From assembly GCF_963921235.1 (NCBI RefSeq), contig NC_086097.1, forward strand, positions 23,066,001-23,130,000: a stretch of DNA of 64,000 nt, given 5' to 3'. The notes under the pieces are model-generated. The model was not told where the DNA came from. It searched no databases and saw nothing but the letters and a program-made list of their open reading frames with translations. Below, piece after piece: positions 2,195 to 62,574 of the stretch; position 1 is the stretch's first letter, and each line of letters opens with the position of its first letter. The translations under genes and the position numbers were made by a program. This stretch comes from Mobula hypostoma. Lineage: Eukaryota.

Positions 2195-2389
2195 CACGAG
2201 GAAATCTGCAGATGCTGGAAATTCAAGCAACACACATCAAAGTTGCTGGTGAACGCAGCAGGCCAGGCAGCACCTCTAAGAAGAGGTACAGTCGACGTTT
2301 CGGGACGAAGGGTCTCGGCCCGAAACGTCGACTGTGCCTCTTCTTAGAGATGCTGCCTGGCCCGCTGCGTTCACCAGCAACTTTGATGT
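2195..2389. mobile_element. Penelope-terminus-derived fold-back mini-element with partial hammerhead motif
   Basis: About 75-bp inverted arms; exact 12-bp TSD gtgaaatgcact (2183-2194 / 2390-2401); sequence nearly identical to the Penelope terminus at 61607-61700. Confidence 0.85.
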
Positions 2390-3154
2390 GTGAAATGCAC
2401 TGTTAGCATCAGCAACCAACACAGTCCGAGGATGTGCTGGGAGCAGCTGGCCAGTGTCATCGTATTTCCGGCACCAGCATAGCATGCTCACAGATTACTA
2501 ACCCCAACCTATACATCTTTGCAATGTGGGAGGAAACCAGAGCACCCAGAGGAAACCCATGCGTTTATGGATAGAACGTTCAAACTCCTTACAGACACTG
2601 GTGGGAGTTGACCTTGGATCGCTGGCACTGTAACCATTATTCTATACGCGATGTTTCTGTGCCACCCCAGCTGAATGGGCCACTGTAAATTGTCCTCAGT
2701 GTGTAGATGAGTGGTAGTGCCTCCCTAACCTGCTGAGTACCTACAACACCTTGTTTATATTCACTCTGGATTCCAGGATCTTGTGTCCTCTAGGCTGAGA
2801 TTATTTTATTTGGAATAGAGAAGGCTGAGTGAGATTTAATGGAAATGTATAAGATTTGGAGGGATCTCGGCAGGGTGAACAACAAAGGAATGAAACAGAG
2901 AATGCTGGAAATAGTCAACAGATCAGACAGCATCAGTTGGGAGAGAGCTGACATTTCAGGCTAATGACCTTACTGAGAAATGCCAGAAATCAAAAAACTC
3001 TAATTTTAAATACCAGAGATTTTTCAGGTGCTGGAAATTTTTGAGCAACACACACAAAATTCTGGAGGAACTCAACAGGTCAGGCAACCTCTTTGGACCG
3101 GAAATGAATAGTCGATGTTTCAGGTTAAGTTCCTTCATTAGACACCCACCTCAA

Positions 3155-4005
3155 GATTGTTTGATTCAAGATTATTTAATGTCGTTTCTTGTAAGCAAGT
3201 GTAAGAACAAATTAATTGTTACCCCATATCCATTGCAACACATAAACCCACAAAAGATAAAGAACATAATAATAATAATAATAATTTAAGACACACACAA
3301 TAAAGACATCTGATCACTTGTATACATAGATTGATTACAGGTCCTTAAAGTGACGCTAGGATGTACGTAAGGTGACTGACAGGAAATAAAGTAATGGTGG
3401 AGTTACACATATCAAATTTGCTGGTGAACGCAGACTTGGCCCGAAACGTTGACTGTACCTCTTCCTAGAGGTGCTGCCTGGCCTGCTGCATTCACCAGCA
3501 AATTTGATGTGTGTTGCTTGAATTTCCAGCATCTGCAGAATTCCTCGTGTAATGGTGGAGTTAGTGGGTGGAGATGTTAATCAGTCTTACTGCTTGGGGA
3601 AAGTAACTGTTTTTGAGTCTAGTAGTCCTGGCATAGATGCTACACAGCCTCCTCCCCGATGGGAGTGAGGCAAACAGTCTATGAGCAGGGTGGGTGCGAT
3701 CCTTCATGATGTTACTGGCCCTTTTTTTGGCACCTTTCTGTATGTACATCCTTGACAGTGGGTAGCCTGGTGCTAGTGATGCGTTGGGCAGTTTTGACTA
3801 CCTGTTGTAGAGCCTTGCTGTTCTCCACAGTGCAGTTTCCGTACCAAGCAGTGATGCATATAGTTAAGATGCTCCCTACTGCGTATCTGTAGAATGATGT
3901 GAGTATGGATGTGCAAAGCCCAGCTCTCTTCATTCTCCCCAAAAAGTAGAGCATCAATGAACTTTCTTGACTGTGTAGGATGTGTTCTAGGACTATGAAA
4001 ACACA
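3155..4005 (-). mobile_element. Rex1/Babar-type LINE 3' fragment (interrupted at 3406-3548)
   Basis: Minus-strand ORF pieces SILTICITAWYGNCT, LQQVVKTAQRI, LPSGRR, RLKNSYFPQAVRLIN. Confidence 0.8.
3406..3548 (+). mobile_element. Penelope-terminus-derived fold-back mini-element
   Basis: Exact 15-bp TSD gtaatggtggagtta (3391-3405 / 3549-3563); short inverted arm followed by ggcccgaaacgttgactg and the common tail. Confidence 0.85.
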
Positions 4006-21440: not shown

Positions 21441-21825
21441 GGAAAATCTGCAGATGCTGGAAGTCCAAGCAACACACACTAAATTCTGGAGCAACTCAGC
21501 AGGTCAGGCAGCATCTATGGAGAAGAGTACAGTCGACGTTTTGGGCCGAGGCCCTTCATCAGGACTGGAGGGAAAAAAAGATGAGGAGTCAGAGTAAGAA
21601 GGTGGGGGGAGGGGAGGAAGAAATACAGGTGATAGGTGAAACTGGAAGGGGGGAGAGAGGTGCTAAAGAGCTGGGAAGTTGATTGGTGAAAGAGGTACAG
21701 GGCTGGAAGAGGGGGAATCTGATAGGAGAGAACAGAAGACCACGGAAGAAAGAAACGGGGAGGAGCACCAGAGGGAGCTGATGGGCAGATAAAGAGATAG
21801 GGTGAGAGATGGGAATGTGGAATGT
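21441..21825 (-). mobile_element. Penelope-like 3' UTR/terminus fragment
   Basis: Reverse complement of the terminus at 61430-61700, including a hammerhead motif at 21530-21567. Confidence 0.8.
21530..21567 (-). ncRNA. Minimal type I hammerhead ribozyme copy with catalytic G12>A
   Basis: Minus strand CAGUC-CUGAUGA-A-GGGC(CUCG)GCCC-AAAA-C-GUC-GACUG; all stems pair and only G12 of the core is lost. Confidence 0.7.
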
Positions 21826-29478: not shown

Positions 29479-30055
29479 CAGTACTGAGAAGTCTTCGGCA
29501 CATATCCAGCCCTGAGAAACCAGGCAAGGTTATTTGATTCCTAACAATTGGTTAATCAATCATTACAGAATATCTTTCTGGTGTTTCCCACTCCCTCCCT
29601 TCTCCCTTTCCCTTTTCCCAACCATGATTCTCCTGTCCCTGCCCTTTTCCCACTCTCAGTCCACAATAGAGACCAATATCAGAATCAGACTCAAGATGCT
29701 GGAAGAACTCAGCAGGCCAGGCAGCATCGATGGAAACGAGGAAACAGCCGACATTTCAGGCTGAGACCCTTCATCGGGGTCTTGGCCCAAAACATTGACT
29801 GTTTACTCTTTTCCATAGATGCTGCCTGACCTGCTGAGTTCTTCCAGCATTTTGTGGATGTTGCTTGGATTTCCAGCATCAACAGATTTTCTCATATCAG
29901 AATCAGATTTATCATCACTCACATCTCACATATGTCCCGAAATTTGTTGATTTTTTGTGGCAGCAGTACAGTACAATACATAAAATTACAGTACTGTGCA
30001 AAGGTCTTGGGGAGCCTATTTATATATATGTGCCTAAGACTTTTGCACAGTACAT
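29479..30055. mobile_element. Composite Tc1-type non-autonomous element (copy 1), interrupted by a Penelope fold-back
   Basis: TA-cagtactg left end; complete mini-MITE (29989-30055) as right end; cargo shared with 31920-32366 and 41033-41536. Confidence 0.75.
29690..29893. mobile_element. Penelope-terminus-derived fold-back mini-element
   Basis: Exact 14-bp TSD atatcagaatcaga (29676-89 / 29894-907); inverted arms meet within the hammerhead motif. Confidence 0.85.
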
Positions 30056-33284: not shown

Positions 33285-33816
33285 CTTCCATGGGCTTTTG
33301 CCCTCTCCTTTTAGATTCCTCCTTCTCCAGCCCTTTATCTCTTTCACTAATTGACTTCCCAGCTCTTTACTTCACCCCTTCCCCTCTGCCGGTTTCAACA
33401 TCCACCTTGTACTTCTTCCTGCCCTCCCCCACCATCTTACTCTGACCTCATCTTTTCTCTCCAGTCCTGATGAAGGGTCTCGTCCCAAAACGTCTTCCTT
33501 TTACTCTTTTCCGTAGAGGCTGCCTGGCCTGCTTAGTTCCTCCAGCATTTTGTGTGCGTTGCTTAGGGTTTCCAACATCTCCCGATTTTTCTCATGCCTG
33601 TGATTGTTATTTGATAGTTTTTGTTGAGTTTTCTGTGTGACAAACATCCGCTGCATGTCTTTCATGGCTGCTGTTCAAGACGTACACCTCTGACTGTAAC
33701 ATAAATATAAGACATCACAAAAGGAATATGTAAGGCACAATATAAATCTAATTCCTCTTCTTCTGACAGTCATTGAGCTTATTTCGATGCAGAGGGGTGG
33801 AATGCACAAGTGACAG

Positions 33817-42596: not shown

Positions 42597-43680
42597 CTGC
42601 AGGGAGAAAGGGGAAAGGGAAAAATGACATTGAATTCTTGCTCATGATTGTCATCTTAATGACTAATACCAGTGGGCATATATTTAAATGATTGGAAGAA
42701 AGGATACGAGGGATGTCAGAGTTACGTTCTTTAGACAGTGTGTGGTGGGTGCATGGAATTCCCTGCTGGTCATGGTGGTAGATTCTGATACATTTAAGAA
42801 GCTCTTAGGTAAGCATGAACATGAGATTCTGCAGATACTGGAAATCCAAAGCAATGACACACAGAATGCTGGAGGGGAACTCAGCAGGTCAGGCAGCATC
42901 AATGGAAATGAACAAACAGTCGACATTTTGGGTCAAGACCTTTCTTCAGGACTGGAAAGGACAGATAGGCACACGAGTGGATAGAAAATAGTGGGCTGTG
43001 TAAAAGGGAAGGGTTAGATTGATATTGGAGTAGGTCGGCAAAACATCACAGGCTGCAGGGCTTGTACTGTGCTGTAGTGTTCTATGTTCAAATGCATCAA
43101 CATATTCAAATTGCTCTGGAGACTCATTGCTCCTTACCTCTGTAAACTTCTCAGCCTGGTAATTCTCCGAGAATTCTGTGTTCACACAAATGAGCAATCC
43201 TGAACCTAATTCCTCCCCAACTAGTTTGCAAATTTCATCTGTCCAGAATCCTAAGCTTTACTACATTTCTGTTACTTTAAGGTGCCAATATAAAGCCCAT
43301 CTCTTTGACTAAGCCTTTGCTCATTTAGCCTAATACCTCCTTATCCAGCTCAACATTTGATAATACACCTGCTCTGCCCTTTGGGACATTTTTGGCTAAA
43401 TGTTAAATTGGCCTCCTGAGCTCTGAAAAGTCACTCTTCCAAATCCTATAAAACAAGATGGGATGATGGACTGGCTGGCAAGCAGTAGGAGACAGCTGGC
43501 ATTTGTGAGGATGCTGAACTGTTTAAAAGGAGCTCTCACTGGCAGCTGAGATGGAGATTTCAGGAGAGTCTTATAAGAAGGAAAGAATAAAGCAGGACAG
43601 TCATCATTAAGTTGCCTAGTGAGTCTTCCAGTGAAACCTTGCACCCCCCAATCCTCCAGGTACTGTCTATAGTGACTTAC

Positions 43681-54533: not shown

Positions 54534-55255
54534 TTGCCTTTTTTTAATTTTCTCCGTTGATCGGAGGCTGTGAATTGGTTGGTTTTAACTTTTCTGTGCC
54601 CTATTTGGGCAGAAAAGTTTACTTTTGATTTCTTAATATGGCTGCTAAACTTTCTTTTTAACTGCGTCATTTCTTTCTTTTCCCAGGGGATTCTGGGTGG
54701 TTACTTCCCTTTTGTCATCTTACGTATTTCCTGTGCGGCCTTAAATTTTGTAGTTTTTTTTTAAATTTTATTCTGTTTTGCTTTTTATAATCATTTTATG
54801 TTAATAATCCTATTTTTTTTGTTGCTGTGTCTATTCATGAGTTTGAGGTTTATTGTGGTTTTTTTTTAATATATACTTTCCGGCTTTTGTTCTGTTCTGT
54901 GTGTATTTTAATTGAGCTAACTTTTTTTTACTTATTTTTTTTACTGTTTTACAATTAGCTGATCCTTTTCATATTTATACCTTTTTTTTAGGGAGCGTAT
55001 ACCGGAAGTCATGGGGGTAGTTTTAGCGCTTGCTTCTTTCTGGCGGGTCTGCTTTAGATTTCGCCTTGGGGTCCTGGGGTGGGGGGTGGTGGGAGGGGCT
55101 TCACGTTTTAGTTTGTTTCTCTTTGGGCTATATACATTATTGAAGTATTGGTTACGTCCTTTTCCCCGGTATCTTTTGTATGTTCTGTTTCCTCTCCGGG
55201 TCTGTGGGTCGCGCCTATTGTCAATCCTCCTTGTTATGGGTTGACTTTAGGATTT

Positions 55256-58200
55256 ATGGAGTCTATTATTAATTTTGTCTCCTGGAATACTAATGGTCTT
55301 AATCATCCTATTAAAAGGAAAAAAGTTTTTAAAGTGTTCCGGAGACTTAAAGCACAAATTTTATTTTTACAAGAGACCCATGTACGGAGGGGGGACAGAC
55401 TACGTTTTTTCAAATTTTGGAAGGGACAACAATTTCATTCGAACTCCAATGCTAAGATTCGAGGCGTCTCTATTTTTATAGACTCCTCAGTTACTTTTAT
55501 ACAACAGGATATTATCTCTGATCCGAATGGTAGATTTTTATTGGTTAGTGGTTTATTATTTAATAAAAAAGTAGTTTTGGTTAATGTTTATGCTCCTAAT
55601 ATGGATTGTCCGGAATTTTATAAATCATTGTTTGATCAGTTTCCGAATTTGAATGAGTTTTCATTGATTTGGGGCGGAGATCTTAATACCTGTTTATCTC
55701 CAGCTTTGGACCGTTCGGCTCCTTTACGGACTTTACCTAATAAATCTGCAAATTTGATTAATTTTTTCCTTTCTGATTCTGGGTCGACGGACATTTGGCG
55801 TTTTCTGCATCCTCAGGAAAAAGATTTTTCCTTCTTTTCACATGTTCATCATTCCTATTCAAGAATTGATTATTTTTTCATTGATTCTCGTCTCATTCCT
55901 TCAGTGATTAAATGTGATTATGATTCTATAACCATTTCGGATCATGCTCCACTTAAGCTTTCTATTAAAATTATGGCCAATATACCAAACAATAGACAAT
56001 GGCGTTTTAATTCGCTGTTGCTTCAGGACTCGGACTTTGTTAATTTTATGAATGAACAGATTGAGCTTTTTTTTACAATTAACCATACAGAAGATATTTC
56101 GGTTAACACTCTTTGGGACACTTTTAAAGCCTATATTCGGGGTCAGATTATTTCGTATTCCGTTGCTTTGAGGAAGAAACAGAAGCAGGAGGAGATGGTA
56201 ATTGTGGACAAGATTAAAGAAATTGATAAGAAATATGTTATGGCTCCTTCTGAGGAGCTATACAAACAAAGAACTGAACTTCAAATGGAACACAGTTTAC
56301 TACTCTCGTCCTCGATTGTAAACCAATTAAAGAAAACAAGAAGTGATTTTTATGTTCACAGTGATAAAATTGGCAAGCTGCTGGCTAATCAATTGAAATC
56401 TAATTATGTTAAATCTCAAATCAATCAGATTTATAACCAAAATGATCGATTGATATTGGATCATGTGGGGATTAATCAAACCTTTTGTGATTTTTATTCT
56501 TCTTTATACCAATCAGAGTCTCCTCGAGATTCTAAATATATGAATGATTTTTTAGATAAGTTAGACTTCCCTCTGATTTCACAGGATATGTCTTCTTTAT
56601 TAGATACTTCCATTACAATGGATGAGATTAAGAATGTTATTTTTTCTATGAATCTGGGGAAAGCTCCTGGCCCTGATGGGTTTACCGTTGAATTTTATAA
56701 ATGTTTTGCTTCTTTATTGATTCCTTGGCTCTATAAGGTTTTTGAGGCTTCTTTGAAACTTGGTAAACTTCCGGAATCTTTTAATAGAGCATCAATTTCT
56801 TTAATACTAAAGAAGGATAAAGACCCTGCTCAATGTGCATCTTATAGACCAATATCTTTATTAAATGTTGATTCTAAAGTTTTTTCTAAGTTATTAGCAA
56901 ATAGACTAGAAAAAGTACTTCCTTCTATTATTTCGGAAGACCAAACGGGTTTTATTAAAGGTCGTTACTCTTTTTATAATATTCGTACATTGTTAAATAT
57001 CGTTTATACTCCCTCACAAAATGTTCCTGAGTGTGTTATTTCTTTAGATGCCGAGAAAGCTTTTGATAGAGTAGAATGGCCTTATTTATTTAAGGTGCTT
57101 GAAATGTTTAATTTTAGCTTGAAATTTATATCCTGGATTAAACTGTTATATTACTCCCCTGTAGCCTCGGTTCGTACTAACTCCTTAAACTCACCTTTTT
57201 TTCCTCTCTTTCGTGGTACTCGACAAGGCTGTCCTCTTAGTCCCCTATTATTTGATATTGCATTAGAACCTCTTGCAATTGCTATTCGAGAATCTTTAAA
57301 TATTACTGGGATAACTCGGGGATTAAAGTCCCATAAATTATCACTCTATGCTGATGATTTACTTTTATATATTTCTAATCCTGAGAGATCCATTCCTGCT
57401 GTTTTAGAGTTATTAGCACAATTTGGTCTTTTCTCAGGTTATAAATTAAATCTTAGTAAGAGTGAACTTTTTCCGATTAATAAACATCTTCCCTTATATT
57501 ATAAATTTCCATTTAAATTGATTAATAATTACTTTTCATATCTTGGGATTAAAATTACTTGTAAACATAAAGATTTATTTAAGACTAACTTTTTACCATT
57601 AATAGACCATATTACTCAACTTTCATCTAAATGGTTTCCCTTATATTTAACTTTGATTGGTCGTATTAATGCAGTTAAGATGTTTTTTTTGCCAAAATTT
57701 TTATATGTGTTTCAGGCATTACCAATTTTCGTTCCTAAATCTTTTTTTGATAAAGTTGACTCTAAAATTTCTTCATTTATTTGGCAGAACAAGAATCCGA
57801 GACTGGGTAAAATACATTTACAGAAAGCTAAGAGAGATGGAGGTTTAGCATTACCTAACTTTAGATTTTATTATTGGGCTATTAATATTCGACATATGAA
57901 ATTTTGGTTACTTGACCGGGACATACTATTTATTCCTAAATGGGTAGCATTGGAATTACAATCTGTTCAGGGTTATACACTTGGTTCTATTTTAGGTTCC
58001 TCTCTTCCTTTTGATTCGAAACGTCTTAAGCAGGTCTCTAACCCGATAGTTAAATATGCTTTGCGCATTTGGTTTCAATTCAGAAAATTTTTTGATCTTA
58101 ATCAATTCGGGTTAGCGATTCCTATTTTAGGTAACATATTTTTTCCTCCCTCTTTTACGGATCGCGCTTTTCAAACTTGGAAGACTAAGGGTATTTTACG

Positions 58201-59032
58201 GTTTTTGGATTTATTTTTAGATGGTTCCCTTATGTCTTTTGAACAATTATCTAATAAATATAACTTATCAAGAATACATTTTTTTAGATATTTACAAGTT
58301 AGAAATTTCCTAAGTACTATACTTACTTCCTTTCCAATGCTTCCTCCTATATATATTTTAGATTCGATAATTAACCTTAATCCATGTCAGAAAGGTGCAT
58401 CGGCTATGATTTATAATATTATTATGAAACTTAGGAAAGCTCCATTTGATAAGATTAGGGTAGATTGGGAACAGGAATTGGGGCTTACCATTTCTGTGGA
58501 TGATTGGGGGCAGATTTTACAATTAGTTAATACTTCCTCTATTTGTGCTAAACATTCCCTAATTCAATTTAAAGTGGTTCATAGAGCACATATGTCCAAA
58601 GATAAGTTAGCGCGTTTTTACTCGCATATTAATCCTTTCTGTGATAGATGTTCGGGGCAGATAGCCTCTTTAACTCATATGTTTTGGTCTTGTCCTACTT
58701 TGGAAACTTTTTGGAGAGATATTTTCAATATTATTTCTAAGGTATTAAATATAGATATCTCTCCTCACCCTATTACTGCTATCTTTGGACTACCTAAAAT
58801 TTCTAGTAATCTTTCCCCTTCAGCCCGTAGAATGATTGCATTTCTTACTTTAATGGCGAAAAGATGTATTTTACAACATTGGAAAGAGCTTAATGCTCCA
58901 ACTACCTTTTTTTGGTTTTCTCAGACGATTTTATGTTTGAATCTGGAGAAAATTAGAAGTAACCTTTATGATTCTTCATTTAAATTTGAACAGATTTGGG
59001 GACCTTTTATTCGATATTTTCATTTAATGTAA
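55256..59032 (+). CDS. L1 ORF2p (APE endonuclease, reverse transcriptase, C-terminal zinc knuckle), 1258 aa from first ATG
   Basis: SWNTNGLN, LQETH, NVYAPN, GGDLN, SRIDYFF, SDHAP; KAPGPDGF, YRPISLLN, LDAEKAFDRV, GTRQGCPLSP, YADD, YLGI; CDRC-x8-H-x4-C. Confidence 0.97.
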   Translation: MESIINFVSWNTNGLNHPIKRKKVFKVFRRLKAQILFLQETHVRRGDRLRFFKFWKGQQFHSNSNAKIRGVSIFIDSSVTFIQQDIISDPNGRFLLVSGLLFNKKVVLVNVYAPNMDCPEFYKSLFDQFPNLNEFSLIWGGDLNTCLSPALDRSAPLRTLPNKSANLINFFLSDSGSTDIWRFLHPQEKDFSFFSHVHHSYSRIDYFFIDSRLIPSVIKCDYDSITISDHAPLKLSIKIMANIPNNRQWRFNSLLLQDSDFVNFMNEQIELFFTINHTEDISVNTLWDTFKAYIRGQIISYSVALRKKQKQEEMVIVDKIKEIDKKYVMAPSEELYKQRTELQMEHSLLLSSSIVNQLKKTRSDFYVHSDKIGKLLANQLKSNYVKSQINQIYNQNDRLILDHVGINQTFCDFYSSLYQSESPRDSKYMNDFLDKLDFPLISQDMSSLLDTSITMDEIKNVIFSMNLGKAPGPDGFTVEFYKCFASLLIPWLYKVFEASLKLGKLPESFNRASISLILKKDKDPAQCASYRPISLLNVDSKVFSKLLANRLEKVLPSIISEDQTGFIKGRYSFYNIRTLLNIVYTPSQNVPECVISLDAEKAFDRVEWPYLFKVLEMFNFSLKFISWIKLLYYSPVASVRTNSLNSPFFPLFRGTRQGCPLSPLLFDIALEPLAIAIRESLNITGITRGLKSHKLSLYADDLLLYISNPERSIPAVLELLAQFGLFSGYKLNLSKSELFPINKHLPLYYKFPFKLINNYFSYLGIKITCKHKDLFKTNFLPLIDHITQLSSKWFPLYLTLIGRINAVKMFFLPKFLYVFQALPIFVPKSFFDKVDSKISSFIWQNKNPRLGKIHLQKAKRDGGLALPNFRFYYWAINIRHMKFWLLDRDILFIPKWVALELQSVQGYTLGSILGSSLPFDSKRLKQVSNPIVKYALRIWFQFRKFFDLNQFGLAIPILGNIFFPPSFTDRAFQTWKTKGILRFLDLFLDGSLMSFEQLSNKYNLSRIHFFRYLQVRNFLSTILTSFPMLPPIYILDSIINLNPCQKGASAMIYNIIMKLRKAPFDKIRVDWEQELGLTISVDDWGQILQLVNTSSICAKHSLIQFKVVHRAHMSKDKLARFYSHINPFCDRCSGQIASLTHMFWSCPTLETFWRDIFNIISKVLNIDISPHPITAIFGLPKISSNLSPSARRMIAFLTLMAKRCILQHWKELNAPTTFFWFSQTILCLNLEKIRSNLYDSSFKFEQIWGPFIRYFHLM

Positions 59033-60011: not shown

Positions 60012-60783
60012 AATATTTGATAGATTTCAGTGAGATCCCCCACATGCTTATAAACTCCAGTGAGTACAGAGCTATCAAACACTTCTCATACATAAACCCC
60101 TTCATTCCCAGGATCATTCTCGTGAACCTCCCCTGGACCCCTTCCAAAGCCATCATATCTATTTTCAAAGCATATAGATGTGAGTTCTCTCAGAGTCTAC
60201 TTTGCAACTGTGATAAGCTTTTGCTGTTCAATTACCAGAAGACATTTGGTGAACTTCCTCACGTGACGTTTTTAATTTGTGTTATCAAGTAGTAAGATGA
60301 AATACAGAGTTTATTTTGGGTAAAACACCCAAACAATCTACCTCATTGGGTGATGCATTTATTAAGAATTAATGCTTTCATATGTTGGTAAATTTAATGC
60401 TTTTATTTAGATATTTAAAAGATGAAAGTTTCTCAATGAAAACTCCAGCAAGGTGACATTGGTTTTGCCTATCTTTGTGAAGAATTTCTTGAGATCCTTT
60501 GAAGATTTAGCATTACAATCTGGGTGAATGGCTGTTGCAGGGAACAGTTTAGATGCCTGGCACGATGGTGATTCTATTAGTTTTGAATGGTTGGAAACCA
60601 ACCATGGTTGGTTGCGTTAACCATGCATCCAATTAGGATATAAAATACATATTTAGATAATCTATGGATTTACAGCTAATATGACACTGACATAACTTTG
60701 TTACTTCTATTATTGCTCACCTGTAAAATCAGGAAATATAGGTTGCCTCAAAACTGAACGTAAATGTTTTTTTATGCACATCT

Positions 60784-61304
60784 TTGCACATTTTTCCCTC
60801 CCCCGGCTCTGCTTTCCGCAGGGATCGCTCCCTACGCGACTCCCTTGTCCATTTGTCCCCCCCATCCCTCCCCACCGATCTCCCTCCTGGCACTTATCCT
60901 CGTAAGCGGAACAAGTGCTACACATGCCCTTACACTTCCTCCCTTACCACCATCCAGGGCCCCAGACAGTCCTTCCAGGTGAGGCGACACTTCACCTGTG
61001 AGTCGGCTGGGGTGATATACTGCATCCGGCGCTCCCAATGTGGCCTTCTATATATTGGTGAGACCCGATGGAGATTGGGAGATCGTTTTGCTGAACACCT
61101 ACGCTCTGTCCGCCAGAGAAAGCAGGATCTCCCAGTGGCCACACATTTTAATTCCACATCCTATTCTCATTCTGATATGTCTATCCACGGCCTCCTCTAC
61201 TGTAAAGGTTAAGCCACATTCAGGTTGAGGAACAACACCTTATATTCTGTCTGGGTAGCCTCCAACCTGATGGCATGAACATTGACTTCTCAAACTTCCG
61301 CTAA
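60784..61304 (+). pseudogene. PLE GIY-YIG endonuclease domain (disrupted near the C-terminus)
   Basis: FTCESAGVIYCI...CGLLYIGET...RFAEH...VATHFN, then EEQHLIFCLGSLQPDGMNIDFSNFR* in a shifted frame. Confidence 0.9.
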
Positions 61305-61599
61305 TGCCCCACCTCCCCCTCGTACCCCATCCGTTATTTATTTATAGACACACATTCTTTCTCTCTCTCTCCTGTTTCTCCCTCTATCCCTCTGACTATA
61401 CCCCCTGCCCATCCTCGGGTTCCCCCCCCCCGCCTTGTCTTTCTCCCTGGGCCTTCTGTCCCATGATCCTCTCATATCCCTTTTGCCTATCACCTATCCA
61501 GCTCTTGGCTCCATCCCTCCCCCTCCTGTCTTCTCCTATCATTTTGGATCTCCCCCTCCCCCTCCCACTTTCAAATCTCTTACTAGCTCTTCTTTCAGT

Positions 61600-61637
61600 T
61601 AGTCCTGACGAAGGGTCTCGGCCCGAAACGTCGACTG
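61600..61637 (+). ncRNA. Minimal type I hammerhead ribozyme (intact core)
   Basis: Stem I UAGUC/GACUG; core CUGACGA (61605-11) plus extra A; stem II GGGU/GCCC; GAAA (61625-28); loopless palindromic stem III ACGU; GUC cleavage triplet ending at 61632. Confidence 0.85.
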
Positions 61638-61783
61638 TACCTCTTCCTAGAGATGCTGCCTGGCCTGCTGCATTCACCAGCAACTTTGAGTTGTGTTGCA
61701 TAAATGTTTTCTGTATCTATTAGAGGTCGTTCAGTACTGAGAATCACGTATCTCTAGTCCTTGCAAAGAAGTCTTTCATTGTA

Positions 61784-62574
61784 CACTCAGTGGCCACTCA
61801 GGTACACCCGCATACCTGTTCATTAATGCAAATATCTAATCAGCCAATCTTATTCTGCATGGAGGTAAGTTTTTTAATGCAAAGAGTGGTGAGTGCGTGG
61901 AATGGGGTGATGGTGGTGGTGGTGGAGGCGAATACGATAGGGTCTTTTAAGAGACTCCTGGACAGGTACATGCAGCTCAGAAAAATAGAGGGCTATAGGT
62001 AATCCTGGGTAATTTCTAAGGTAAGTCATGCTGGGCACAGCTTTGTGGGCTGAAGGGCTTATATTGTGCTGTAGGTTTTTAATGTTTCTATGTCAGCAAC
62101 CCATTGCAGAAAAGCATGAAGACATGGTCGAGAGGTTCAGTTGTTGTTCAGACCAAACATCAGAATGGGGAACTAATGTGATTCAAGTGATTTTGACTGT
62201 GGATTGATTGTTGGTGCCAGACAGGGTGGTTTAAATACCTCAGAAACTGGTGATCTTCTGGGATTTTCACACACAACTGTCTCTGGAGTTTACACAGGAT
62301 GGTGTGACAAACAAAAAAGAAAATGCGCTGAGCGGCAGTTCTGTGGGTGAAATGCCTTTTGGTAGTGAGGGAATGGCCAGATTGCTTCAGGTTGACAGGA
62401 AAGCAACAGTAACTCAACCACATTTTACAACGGTGGTGTGCAGAAGAGCATCTCTGAAGTCACAGTACATTGAACATTGAAGTGGCTGGATTATGGCAGT
62501 AGAAGACTATGAACATATACTCAGTGCCCATTATATTAAGTACCAGAGGTACCTAGTAATGTGGCCACTGAGTG
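61784..62574 (+). mobile_element. Non-autonomous Tc1 element with N-terminal (HTH) transposase remnant, interrupted by a CR1 tail (about 61860-62092)
   Basis: 14-bp TIRs cactcagtggccac / gtggccactgagtg; TA at left; SDFDCGLIVGARQGG...DLLGFSHTTVS remnant. Confidence 0.82.

What the first reader, a model, noticed from the sequence alone, without database searches (positions are those of the whole stretch)
61600..61637. Intact minimal hammerhead ribozyme in the terminus of a Penelope-like element
Seen: UAGUC-CUGACGA-A-GGGU(CUCG)GCCC-GAAA-C-GUC-GACUG has every conserved hammerhead core nucleotide, paired stems I and II, and a loopless palindromic ACGU stem III. It lies about 300 nt downstream of a GIY-YIG PLE ORF on the same strand. 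Established: PLEs carry minimal type I hammerheads whose short palindromic stem III is thought to need dimerisation. Inference: this is a potentially active self-cleaving RNA (cut after 61632) that defines PLE transcript ends. An ORF track cannot show it.
Basis: partly seen in the sequence, partly recalled or inferred. Interest (0 to 1): 0.8.

Follow-up and report, generated by a model that had tools for sequence, protein, structure and literature searches.

The report
Minimal hammerhead in dead Penelope-like copy
The flagged 38 bases are a complete minimal hammerhead ribozyme motif near the 3' end of a broken, 5'-truncated Penelope-like retrotransposon copy; this kind of motif is already described, and this lone copy is likely an inactive fossil.

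Summary
Window 61600-61637 (+) carries every hammerhead core base, a 5-bp helix I, a 4-bp helix II and a loopless ACGU helix III. It lies 298 nt after the natural stop of a GIY-YIG ORF remnant.

It is the minimal hammerhead (min-HHR) of Penelope-like elements (PLEs) described by Cervera & de la Pena 2014. This scan has reported it many times, in this genome and in others.

- **This copy.** It is a 930-nt, 5'-truncated insertion (60771-61700) with a 10-bp target-site duplication. Its ORF remnant is broken by a stop and a frameshift, and there is no intact partner motif in the window.
- **The parent element.** Elsewhere in the genome it forms 3.5-kb head-to-tail arrays, 99.8-100% identical, with a 1043-aa ORF holding RT and GIY-YIG matches and a hammerhead at every junction.
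- **Copy numbers.** The window's canonical version (C11.1) has 7,093 exact copies. A G.U variant (U11.1) has 41,472 and is the one in the young arrays and in the other intact-ORF copies where the motif was found.
"Defines transcript ends" is not supported. Insertions run 65-104 nt past the cut site. None of 76 sampled copies starts at the first base after the cut. The predicted monomer fold is an inactive rod hairpin.

The kind is already known, so interest is low.

The parts
60761..60770 (.). Left copy of the 10-bp target-site duplication TAAATGTTTT
   Evidence: (family D7): identical 10-mer at 60761-70 and 61701-10.
60771..61700 (+). 5'-truncated insertion of a Penelope-like element, about 930 nt, the last quarter of a 3.5-kb unit
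   Evidence: blastn places 60786-61705 on positions 2598-3518 of a 3549-nt linearised young unit (L089) at 90.9% identity; contig depth drops at 61704.
60778..61304 (+). Broken remnant of the C-terminal 176 aa of the PLE ORF: linker R-KRNK-C-YT-C (first Cys of CX4CXXC lost) and the GIY-YIG domain. In-frame stop at 61210-61212, a frameshift just after it, and the natural stop TAA at 61302-61304
   Evidence: tblastn to the 1043-aa ORF of L089: residues 868-1023 in frame +1, 1016-1043 in frame +3. (ORF list). (GIY-YIG E 0.004).
61305..61599 (+). C/T-rich 3' untranslated stretch ending in a pyrimidine tract plus CAG just before helix I
   Evidence: same arrangement in the young unit L089.
61600..61637 (+). 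Minimal type-I hammerhead motif. Helix I 61600-04/61633-37; CUGACGA 61605-11; extra A 61612; helix II 61613-16/61621-24 with loop 61617-20; GAAA 61625-28; C15.2-G16.2 61629-30; U16.1 61631; C17 61632 (predicted cut after it)
   Evidence: All features listed for PLE min-HHRs in PMC4209133 are present.
61638..61700 (+). 3' terminal segment of the insertion, ending in the TG-rich ...GTTGTGTTGC. This copy lacks the optional 36-39-nt 'tail'
   Evidence: about half of the 33 aligned copies carry the extension GAATTTCCAGCATCTGCAGA..., this one does not..
61701..61710 (.). Right copy of the 10-bp target-site duplication

Best explanation
Window 61600-61637 is a complete minimal type-I hammerhead motif lying 68 nt from the 3' end of a dead, 5'-truncated, duplication-flanked copy of a Penelope-like retrotransposon, and it would likely cut after C61632 only if a second copy or the element's own protein supplied the missing helix III, which this lone copy lacks.

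**Shown**
- The motif, the truncated insertion with its target-site duplication, and the broken GIY-YIG ORF remnant.
- The parent family's 3.5-kb head-to-tail arrays. Each junction carries the motif about 300 nt after one ORF's stop and 60-140 nt before the next ORF's likely start.

**Inferred**
- In multimeric transcripts of such arrays, two motifs pair through ACGU (or the protein assists). Cleavage then trims read-through RNA to a unit that starts just upstream of the ORF.
- Reverse transcription starts internally, about 65 nt past the motif. The 3' motif must therefore stay uncut on templates that get inserted.
- In this window the motif is a passenger fossil.
For: - **Motif and statistics:**
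- **Min-HHR features named by Cervera & de la Pena, all present:** an unpaired base between A9 and G10.1, the G10.1-C11.1 pair, a palindromic 15.2-16.2 with no loop 3, and a short open helix I.
- **PLE context of this copy:** GIY-YIG remnant, 10-bp duplication, and alignment to a young unit.
- **Family architecture:**
  - L089 is an array of 3514-3516-nt units, 99.8-100% identical, with the motif at 485, 4001 and 7515. Its 1043-aa ORF matches RVT_1 (E 6e-5) and GIY-YIG (E 1e-3), and the array ends 104 nt past the last cut site.
  - One 5'-truncated copy's GIY-YIG passes Pfam's cutoff (23.6 against 22.6 bits).
  - Variable 5' truncation, an optional 36-39-nt tail and abutting inverted partners appear, as Craig et al. 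2021 describe for PLEs (PMC8557442, passages).
- **Conditional activity:**
  - The monomer MFE is a rod hairpin (-13.5 kcal/mol for the 40-nt stretch 61600-61639; -12.9 for the 38-nt motif alone). In it GACG of the core pairs with CGUC at the cut site. Helices I+II alone give -9.5.
  - Published min-HHRs were inactive as monomers and weakly active as dimers.
  - The PAc motif was protein-assisted.
Against: - No cleavage was or could be measured here.
- Rfam finds no hammerhead.
- Folding energy is ordinary, and the predicted homodimer is an extended duplex, not a double hammerhead. Nearest-neighbour models cannot score that fold.
- No double-sided covariation was found. All 68 descriptor hits in 461 kb belong to one sequence family. 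Only one-sided changes keep pairing (U.G/C-G at the outer helix I pair and at 10.4-11.4; G-C/G.U at 10.1-11.1).
- The family's most successful lineage has U at 11.1: 41,472 exact copies against 7,093. This weakens the pair that the papers call conserved.
- Copies do not begin at the cut site.
- Contigs from one RNA-Seq library run uncut across it (X20 records 25, 27, 28). DNA carry-over is not excluded.
- Pfam support for RT is below cutoff (23.3 against 29.6 bits), and no PDB relative was found.
Confidence: 0.6

Rival explanations
1. The motif is kept by the element as a structural RNA module (rod hairpin, 5' leader or handle for the reverse transcriptase). Self-cleavage plays no part in the element's spread; the hammerhead core is tolerated or vestigial.
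For: - The predicted MFE of the monomer is a rod hairpin that sequesters the core.
- The lineage with U11.1 (a G.U wobble at the conserved 10.1-11.1 pair) outnumbers the canonical one 41,472 to 7,093. It is the version in the 99.8-100% identical arrays and in 4 of the 5 other intact-ORF copies fetched.
- C11.1 copies look older. Pairwise identity of the 250 nt upstream is 0.82 (n 16) against 0.94 (n 10, a biased set). Identity to the young unit is 0.81 (n 5) against 0.91 (n 6).
- 5' ends of short copies gather at the outer edge of helix I (8 of 76), not at the cut (0 of 76). Many loose ends lie before 61601/61602 in three runs.
- Published work: hammerhead mutants did not affect insertion in vitro, and PLE clades without hammerheads proliferate well.
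Against: - The complete core is kept in three sub-lineages whose flanks differ.
- A G.U at 10.1-11.1 still pairs and may still allow cleavage.
- No lineage with a dead core was found. The G12->A seen in 4 of 4 older copies in the window is CpG decay and not a master variant (CG 15, CA 10, TG 19, TA 2 among the 46 CTGATGA rows, hand tally of the first 100 of 458).
- Hammerheads of PLEs from fungi and of PAc do cleave.
Confidence: 0.25
2. One reading: this copy is a potentially active ribozyme whose cut after 61632 defines the ends of PLE transcripts.
For: - The core and helices are intact here, with the canonical G10.1-C11.1 pair.
- In arrays, cuts at successive motifs would release exactly one 3.5-kb unit holding the whole ORF.
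- This role was proposed in PMC4209133.
Against: - This is a solo, promoter-less fragment with no intact partner within the window.
- Insertions extend 65-104 nt past the cut.
- 0 of 76 copies start at the first base after the cut.
- No read ends at the site were found for PAc.
- Contigs cross the site uncut.
Confidence: 0.1
3. Chance resemblance, or a copy of a short non-autonomous 'retrozyme' that is not part of a PLE.
For: - Rfam is silent.
- Very short copies that begin at the motif exist in the genome.
Against: - 7,093 exact copies against 0 in the control.
- The motif here is contiguous, at 90.9% identity over 920 nt, with the ORF-bearing unit.
- It shares one target-site duplication with the GIY-YIG remnant.
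Confidence: 0.02

Closest known systems
Minimal hammerheads (min-HHR) in the pseudo-LTRs of metazoan Penelope-like elements (Cervera & de la Pena 2014, PMC4209133; parts 1-2 read)
   Same: Type-I topology with an open, short helix I. Extra base between A9 and G10.1. G10.1-C11.1 pair. No loop 3 and a palindromic 15.2-16.2. Located in the terminal repeat of a PLE. Thousands of mostly solo, truncated copies per genome. Reported in fishes, coelacanth, frog and reptiles.
   Different: Helix II here is 4 bp, whereas 7-8 bp was described for Schistosoma. Sequence variability within the genome is low (one family in the 461 kb sampled), whereas the paper stresses extreme variability. The dominant lineage here has G.U at 10.1-11.1.
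PAc, a Poseidon-type PLE of Anolis carolinensis (Frangieh et al. 2024, PMC11167929; passages read)
   Same: Tandem pLTR-ORF-pLTR units. Hammerhead close to the ORF start. Insertions end at an internal site with an optional 'tail'. Uncut RNA appears to be the template.
   Different: In PAc the ORF starts inside the motif and the cut lies 26 nt after the start codon. Here the cut lies 60-140 nt before the likely start codon. Protein assistance and activity are untested here. The linker CX4CXXC points to the Neptune/Nematis type and away from Poseidon.
Neptune/Nematis clades of endonuclease-bearing PLEs (Arkhipova 2006, as cited in Craig et al. 2021, PMC8557442; passages read)
   Same: Single ORF with RT followed by a C-terminal GIY-YIG. 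A Cys motif CX2-5CXXC in the linker (CKRNKCYTC in L089). Tandem and inverted insertions. One-sided tail. Hammerhead in the pLTR.
   Different: No phylogeny was made, so the clade is inferred from the linker motif alone. In the window copy the first Cys is mutated.
Non-LTR retrozymes of animals (Li, Clavereau & Pollet 2026 preprint, 10.64898/2026.07.22.740005; abstract and passages read)
   Same: Type-I hammerhead in each tandem unit. Related to PLE pLTRs. Present in the one cartilaginous fish they sampled. Most tested dimers did not cleave in vitro (1 of 9 did).
   Different: Retrozymes are short (51-972 bp) non-coding units. Here the unit is 3.5 kb and encodes the RT-endonuclease, and the window copy is a fragment of that autonomous unit.
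Rfam hammerhead families (Hammerhead_1 and relatives)
   Same: Same catalytic core and type-I connectivity.
   Different: No match even at E<=10. The likely reason, recalled and not tested, is that those models expect a closed helix III hairpin.

Membership tests
Hammerhead ribozyme (any type) | Conserved core C3-U4-G5-A6-N7-G8-A9 ... G12-A13-A14 ... A15.1-U16.1 pair, H17 at the cut site | tested here: met
   CUGACGA 61605-11, GAAA 61625-28, U61631, C61632.
Hammerhead ribozyme (any type) | Self-cleavage 3' of H17 | not testable with these tools
   Only contigs were served, and these cannot show RNA ends.
Hammerhead ribozyme (any type) | Match to a curated covariance model (Rfam) | tested here: not met
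   0 matches at gathering score and at E<=10.
Min-HHR of Penelope-like elements | Helices I and II paired; helix I short and open (type I) | tested here: met
   5 pairs in helix I (one U.G) and 4 pairs in helix II (one U.G).
Min-HHR of Penelope-like elements | Unpaired base between A9 and G10.1, and a G10.1-C11.1 pair | tested here: met
   A61612; G61613-C61624. The family's major lineage has U11.1 instead.
Min-HHR of Penelope-like elements | No or minimal helix III, with palindromic 15.2-16.2 | tested here: met
   A-C-G-U 61628-61631 with no loop.
Min-HHR of Penelope-like elements | Covariation or compensatory changes among families within a genome | tested here: inconclusive
   Only one sequence family in the 461 kb sampled. 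One-sided changes keep pairing; no double-sided change was seen.
Min-HHR of Penelope-like elements | Location in the terminal repeat of a PLE | tested here: met
Endonuclease-bearing Penelope-like element | Single ORF with RT followed by a C-terminal GIY-YIG endonuclease | tested here: met
   L089 1043-aa ORF: RVT_1 at residues 534-696 (E 6e-5, below cutoff) and GIY-YIG at 946-1020 (E 1e-3, below cutoff). The GIY-YIG of a 5'-truncated copy (L004) passes the cutoff.
Endonuclease-bearing Penelope-like element | Telomerase-like RT (phylogenetic placement) | not tested
   No tree was made.
Endonuclease-bearing Penelope-like element | Head-to-tail partial tandems (pLTR), an abutting inverted 5'-truncated partner, and a one-sided 30-40-bp tail | tested here: met
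   Tandem array in L089. Inverted partners in L002, L007, L011, L012, L020, L023, L030, L042/43 and L057/58. A 36-39-nt extension in about half of the 33 copies. None of these three features is present at the window copy itself.
Neptune/Nematis clade | CX2-5CXXC motif in the RT-EN linker | tested here: met
   CKRNKCYTC in L089; RKRNKCYTC in the window copy.

The most novel reading that the evidence does not exclude
Hammerhead catalysis may be dispensable, or deliberately weakened, for the spread of this element.

The lineage that filled the genome has lost the canonical G10.1-C11.1 pair (C->U, leaving a G.U wobble). It counts at least 41,472 exact motif copies and includes 99.8-100% identical arrays with an intact 1043-aa ORF. 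The canonical version seen in this window belongs to an older lineage about six times rarer.

Short copies start at the outer edge of helix I, not at the cut. The motif may therefore persist as the 5' leader or a protein handle of the element's RNA, not as a device that sets transcript ends.
Probability: 0.3. Interest if true: 0.45.

Novelty: already known. Interest (0 to 1): 0.15.

Why it matters
As found, it matters little. It is one more fossil of a motif class described in 2014, in a genome that holds tens of thousands of them, and the scan has reported it repeatedly.

Its use is as annotation. It marks the 3' module of a Neptune-like PLE family that gene and ORF tracks miss.

The family as a whole could be informative. 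It has young intact arrays and two hammerhead versions differing at the conserved 10.1-11.1 pair, which makes it a natural test bed for the open question of whether PLE hammerheads need to cleave at all.

Tried and rejected
- **Rfam:** the whole window at gathering score and 61400-61800 at E<=10 gave nothing.
- **Folding energy as evidence:** z = -1.27, and the MFE is not the hammerhead fold. This is uninformative, because nearest-neighbour models cannot score a double hammerhead.
- **A search for the element's RT that went wrong:** the RVT_1 ORF next to one copy (L034), used as a genome query, belongs to a very abundant LINE-like family. The eight long-ORF places fetched showed no PLE link: six had neither the motif nor the tail anchor, one (L085) had only the tail anchor, and one (L087) had two incidental motif copies. 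I dropped this and redid the search with the PLE ORF piece.
- **A master lineage with a dead core (G12->A):** suggested by 4 of 4 older copies in the window, and rejected. Among the first 100 of 458 genome matches (hand tally), the 46 CTGATGA rows split CG 15, CA 10, TG 19, TA 2, as CpG decay predicts.
- **An intron ending at helix I:** a pyrimidine tract plus CAG precedes the motif, as reported for Drosophila virilis Penelope. No donor-like site lies between the ORF stop and the motif, and the joints seen in contigs are heterogeneous and not GT..AG. Left open.
- **5' ends at the cut site:** 0 of 76 copies start at the first base after the cut and 2 start one base later.
- **Expression of this locus:** the unique flank 61704-61799 has next to no cover in the runs laid. 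This is no evidence either way, because the 'RNA?' label of three of the runs is a guess.
- **Supplements:** those of PMC4209133, with the fish alignments, were not opened.

Full report
**1. The observation**

| Part | Sequence | Window position |
|---|---|---|
| Helix I, 5' strand | UAGUC | 61600-04 |
| Core | CUGACGA | 61605-11 |
| Extra base | A | 61612 |
| Helix II with loop | GGGU(CUCG)GCCC | 61613-24 |
| Core | GAAA | 61625-28 |
| 15.2, 16.2, 16.1, 17 | C-G-U-C | 61629-32 |
| Helix I, 3' strand | GACUG | 61633-37 |

All core bases are present. Helix I has five pairs and helix II four, each including one U.G. A15.1-C-G-U16.1 reads ACGU with no loop. By hammerhead numbering the cut would fall after C61632.

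It is not chance:
- A core pattern with one mismatch allowed has 3 window matches against 0.05 expected.
- The surrounding 32-mer occurs 7,093 times in the 3.48-Gb own genome and 0 times when read backwards.

Two tests are silent. Rfam finds nothing at gathering score or at E<=10. The folding energy is ordinary: z = -1.27, with 23 of 200 shuffles folding as well.

**2. What the copy is**

- ORF 60742-61212 has a weak GIY-YIG match.
- tblastn against an intact family member puts window 60778-61301 on residues 868-1043 of a 1043-aa ORF.
- The remnant has an in-frame stop at 61210-12 and a frameshift just after it. The natural stop is at 61302-04, 298 nt before CUGACGA.
- blastn aligns 60786-61705 to the last 920 nt of a young unit at 90.9% identity.
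- A 10-bp duplication, TAAATGTTTT, flanks 60771-61700.

So this is a solo, 5'-truncated, dead insertion. It has no tail extension and no inverted partner.

The window holds seven more copies of the 3' module. Three of them begin inside the motif, and the four that span it are decayed, all with G12->A.

**3. The parent family**

I aligned 30 genomic copies chosen by the motif and 30 chosen by a 31-mer downstream of it. They show:
- variable 5' truncation;
- a common 3' end about 65 nt after the cut (...GTGTGTTGCTT);
- an optional 36-39-nt extension in about half of the copies;
- frequent head-to-head inverted partners.

These are the traits Craig et al. 2021 list for PLEs.

A protein search with a PLE ORF piece found frames up to 1043 aa. 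One place, L089, is a head-to-tail array:
- Units are 3514-3516 nt long and 99.8-100% identical.
- The motif stands at every junction.
- The ORF matches RVT_1 and GIY-YIG, both below Pfam's cutoffs. The GIY-YIG of another copy passes the cutoff.
- The array ends 104 nt beyond the last cut site.
- The ORF's likely start lies 60-140 nt after the cut.
- The linker CKRNKCYTC fits the CX2-5CXXC motif of the Neptune/Nematis clades. No tree was made.

**4. Two versions of the motif**

| Version | Exact 32-mers in the genome | Where it occurs |
|---|---|---|
| C11.1 (canonical G-C; the window's) | 7,093 | Older, more diverged copies |
| U11.1 (G.U wobble) | 41,472 | L089 array and 4 of the 5 other intact-ORF copies fetched |

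- The other four CpGs of the motif are intact in these 41,472 copies. U11.1 is therefore inherited from a master copy and is not independent decay.
- In the anchor-chosen sample, 17 of 30 copies have an intact core (12 with U11.1, 5 with C11.1). Eight are truncated or joined inside the motif and five are point-mutated.
- C11.1 copies are more diverged. Pairwise identity upstream is 0.82 (n 16) against 0.94 (n 10); the second set is biased toward young copies. Identity to the young unit is 0.81 (n 5) against 0.91 (n 6).
- Older 'B' copies with different flanks carry C11.1, so C is ancestral.
- Contigs of two coded organisms show T as the majority letter at 61624 (51-63% of word depth).

**5. 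Mechanism**

Published work:
- Min-HHRs were inactive as monomers and weakly active as dimers.
- The PAc hammerhead needs the element's protein and is not needed for insertion in vitro. It leaves no read ends in RNA-seq.
- One of nine frog retrozyme dimers cleaved in vitro.

Here:
- The monomer's predicted fold is a rod hairpin that pairs GACG of the core with CGUC at the cut site (-13.5 kcal/mol). The hammerhead-competent helices alone give -9.5.
- Insertions run past the cut site. Templates that get inserted must therefore be uncut at their 3' motif.
- Among 76 copies not chosen by the motif, none starts at the first base after the cut and 2 start one base later. Eight start in the five bases of helix I's outer strand and 17 start inside the motif.
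- Loose ends in three runs also gather before 61601/61602. Part of that signal could come from sub-family divergence at that point.

My best reading (confidence 0.6): the motif is a conditional ribozyme, dependent on a dimer or on the element's protein. In multimeric array transcripts it could trim RNA to a unit that begins just upstream of the ORF. In this window it is a fossil.

The main rival (0.25): it is kept as structure and cleavage is dispensable.

**6. Comparison and novelty**

Every defining feature of the PLE min-HHR that I could test is met. Covariation is inconclusive: one sequence family and only one-sided changes. Activity is untestable here.

The kind is already known (PMC4209133). 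Type-I hammerhead repeats related to PLEs were also reported in the one cartilaginous fish sampled by a 2026 preprint.

Earlier notes of this scan reached the same verdict on other windows of this genome and of other genomes. They also reported the clustering of 5' ends at the motif's outer edge. My small sample agrees with that but does not prove it.

The U11.1 take-over is the one point that might repay bench work.

Noticed in passing
G000:C2:157227500-157236500 (L089, minus strand): Head-to-tail array of at least 2.2 units of the PLE, 3514-3516 nt each and 99.8-100% identical, with an open 1043-aa ORF and the U11.1 hammerhead at each junction. It looks very young.
   Followed up: partly
own genome, counts: The 31-mer just downstream of the motif has 64,413 exact copies. 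The motif has 41,472 (U11.1) plus 7,093 (C11.1). The excess fits CpG decay of the motif (five CpGs) together with copies truncated or inverted inside it.
   Followed up: partly
window 61580-61604, and L089 7488-7515 (oriented): Just upstream of helix I, both sub-families carry a pyrimidine tract ending in CAG. In many copies this reads cttACTAACtcttccttCAG|TTAGTC. It looks like a branch point plus 3' splice site, or like an initiator (TCAGTT). Short copies tend to start within five bases of it.
   Followed up: partly
window 2199-2392: Head-to-head inverted pair of two 3' modules, 2199-2308 (-) and 2304-2392 (+), both starting inside the hammerhead. This is the fold-back form seen at many other places: pairs 38-211 nt apart.
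   Followed up: no
window 3435-3551 (+), 21444-21566 (-), 29777-29892 (+), 33463-33588 (+), 42818-42953 (-): Further decayed copies of the 3' module. The last four belong to an older sub-family with different flanks (CCAGTC... prefix, ...CTGAGTTCCTCCAGCATTTTG tail), and all four have G12->A.
   Followed up: partly
window 55112-59032 (+): A 1306-aa open frame just upstream of the PLE fragment. By eye it looks like a LINE ORF2 (endonuclease plus RT). It was not scanned against any library.
   Followed up: no
L034:3213-3662, and 150 scored places: An RVT_1-bearing repeat (LINE-like, 385,455 first-look candidates) lies next to some PLE fragments but is unrelated to them. It is easy to mistake for the PLE's RT.
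   Followed up: partly
window 61246/61602 (run X20, record 25): One RNA-Seq contig joins 61227-61246 directly to 61602-61680, skipping 355 nt between the ORF end and helix I. It has only 20 nt on one side and the ends are not GT..AG. It could be a deleted genomic copy.
   Followed up: no
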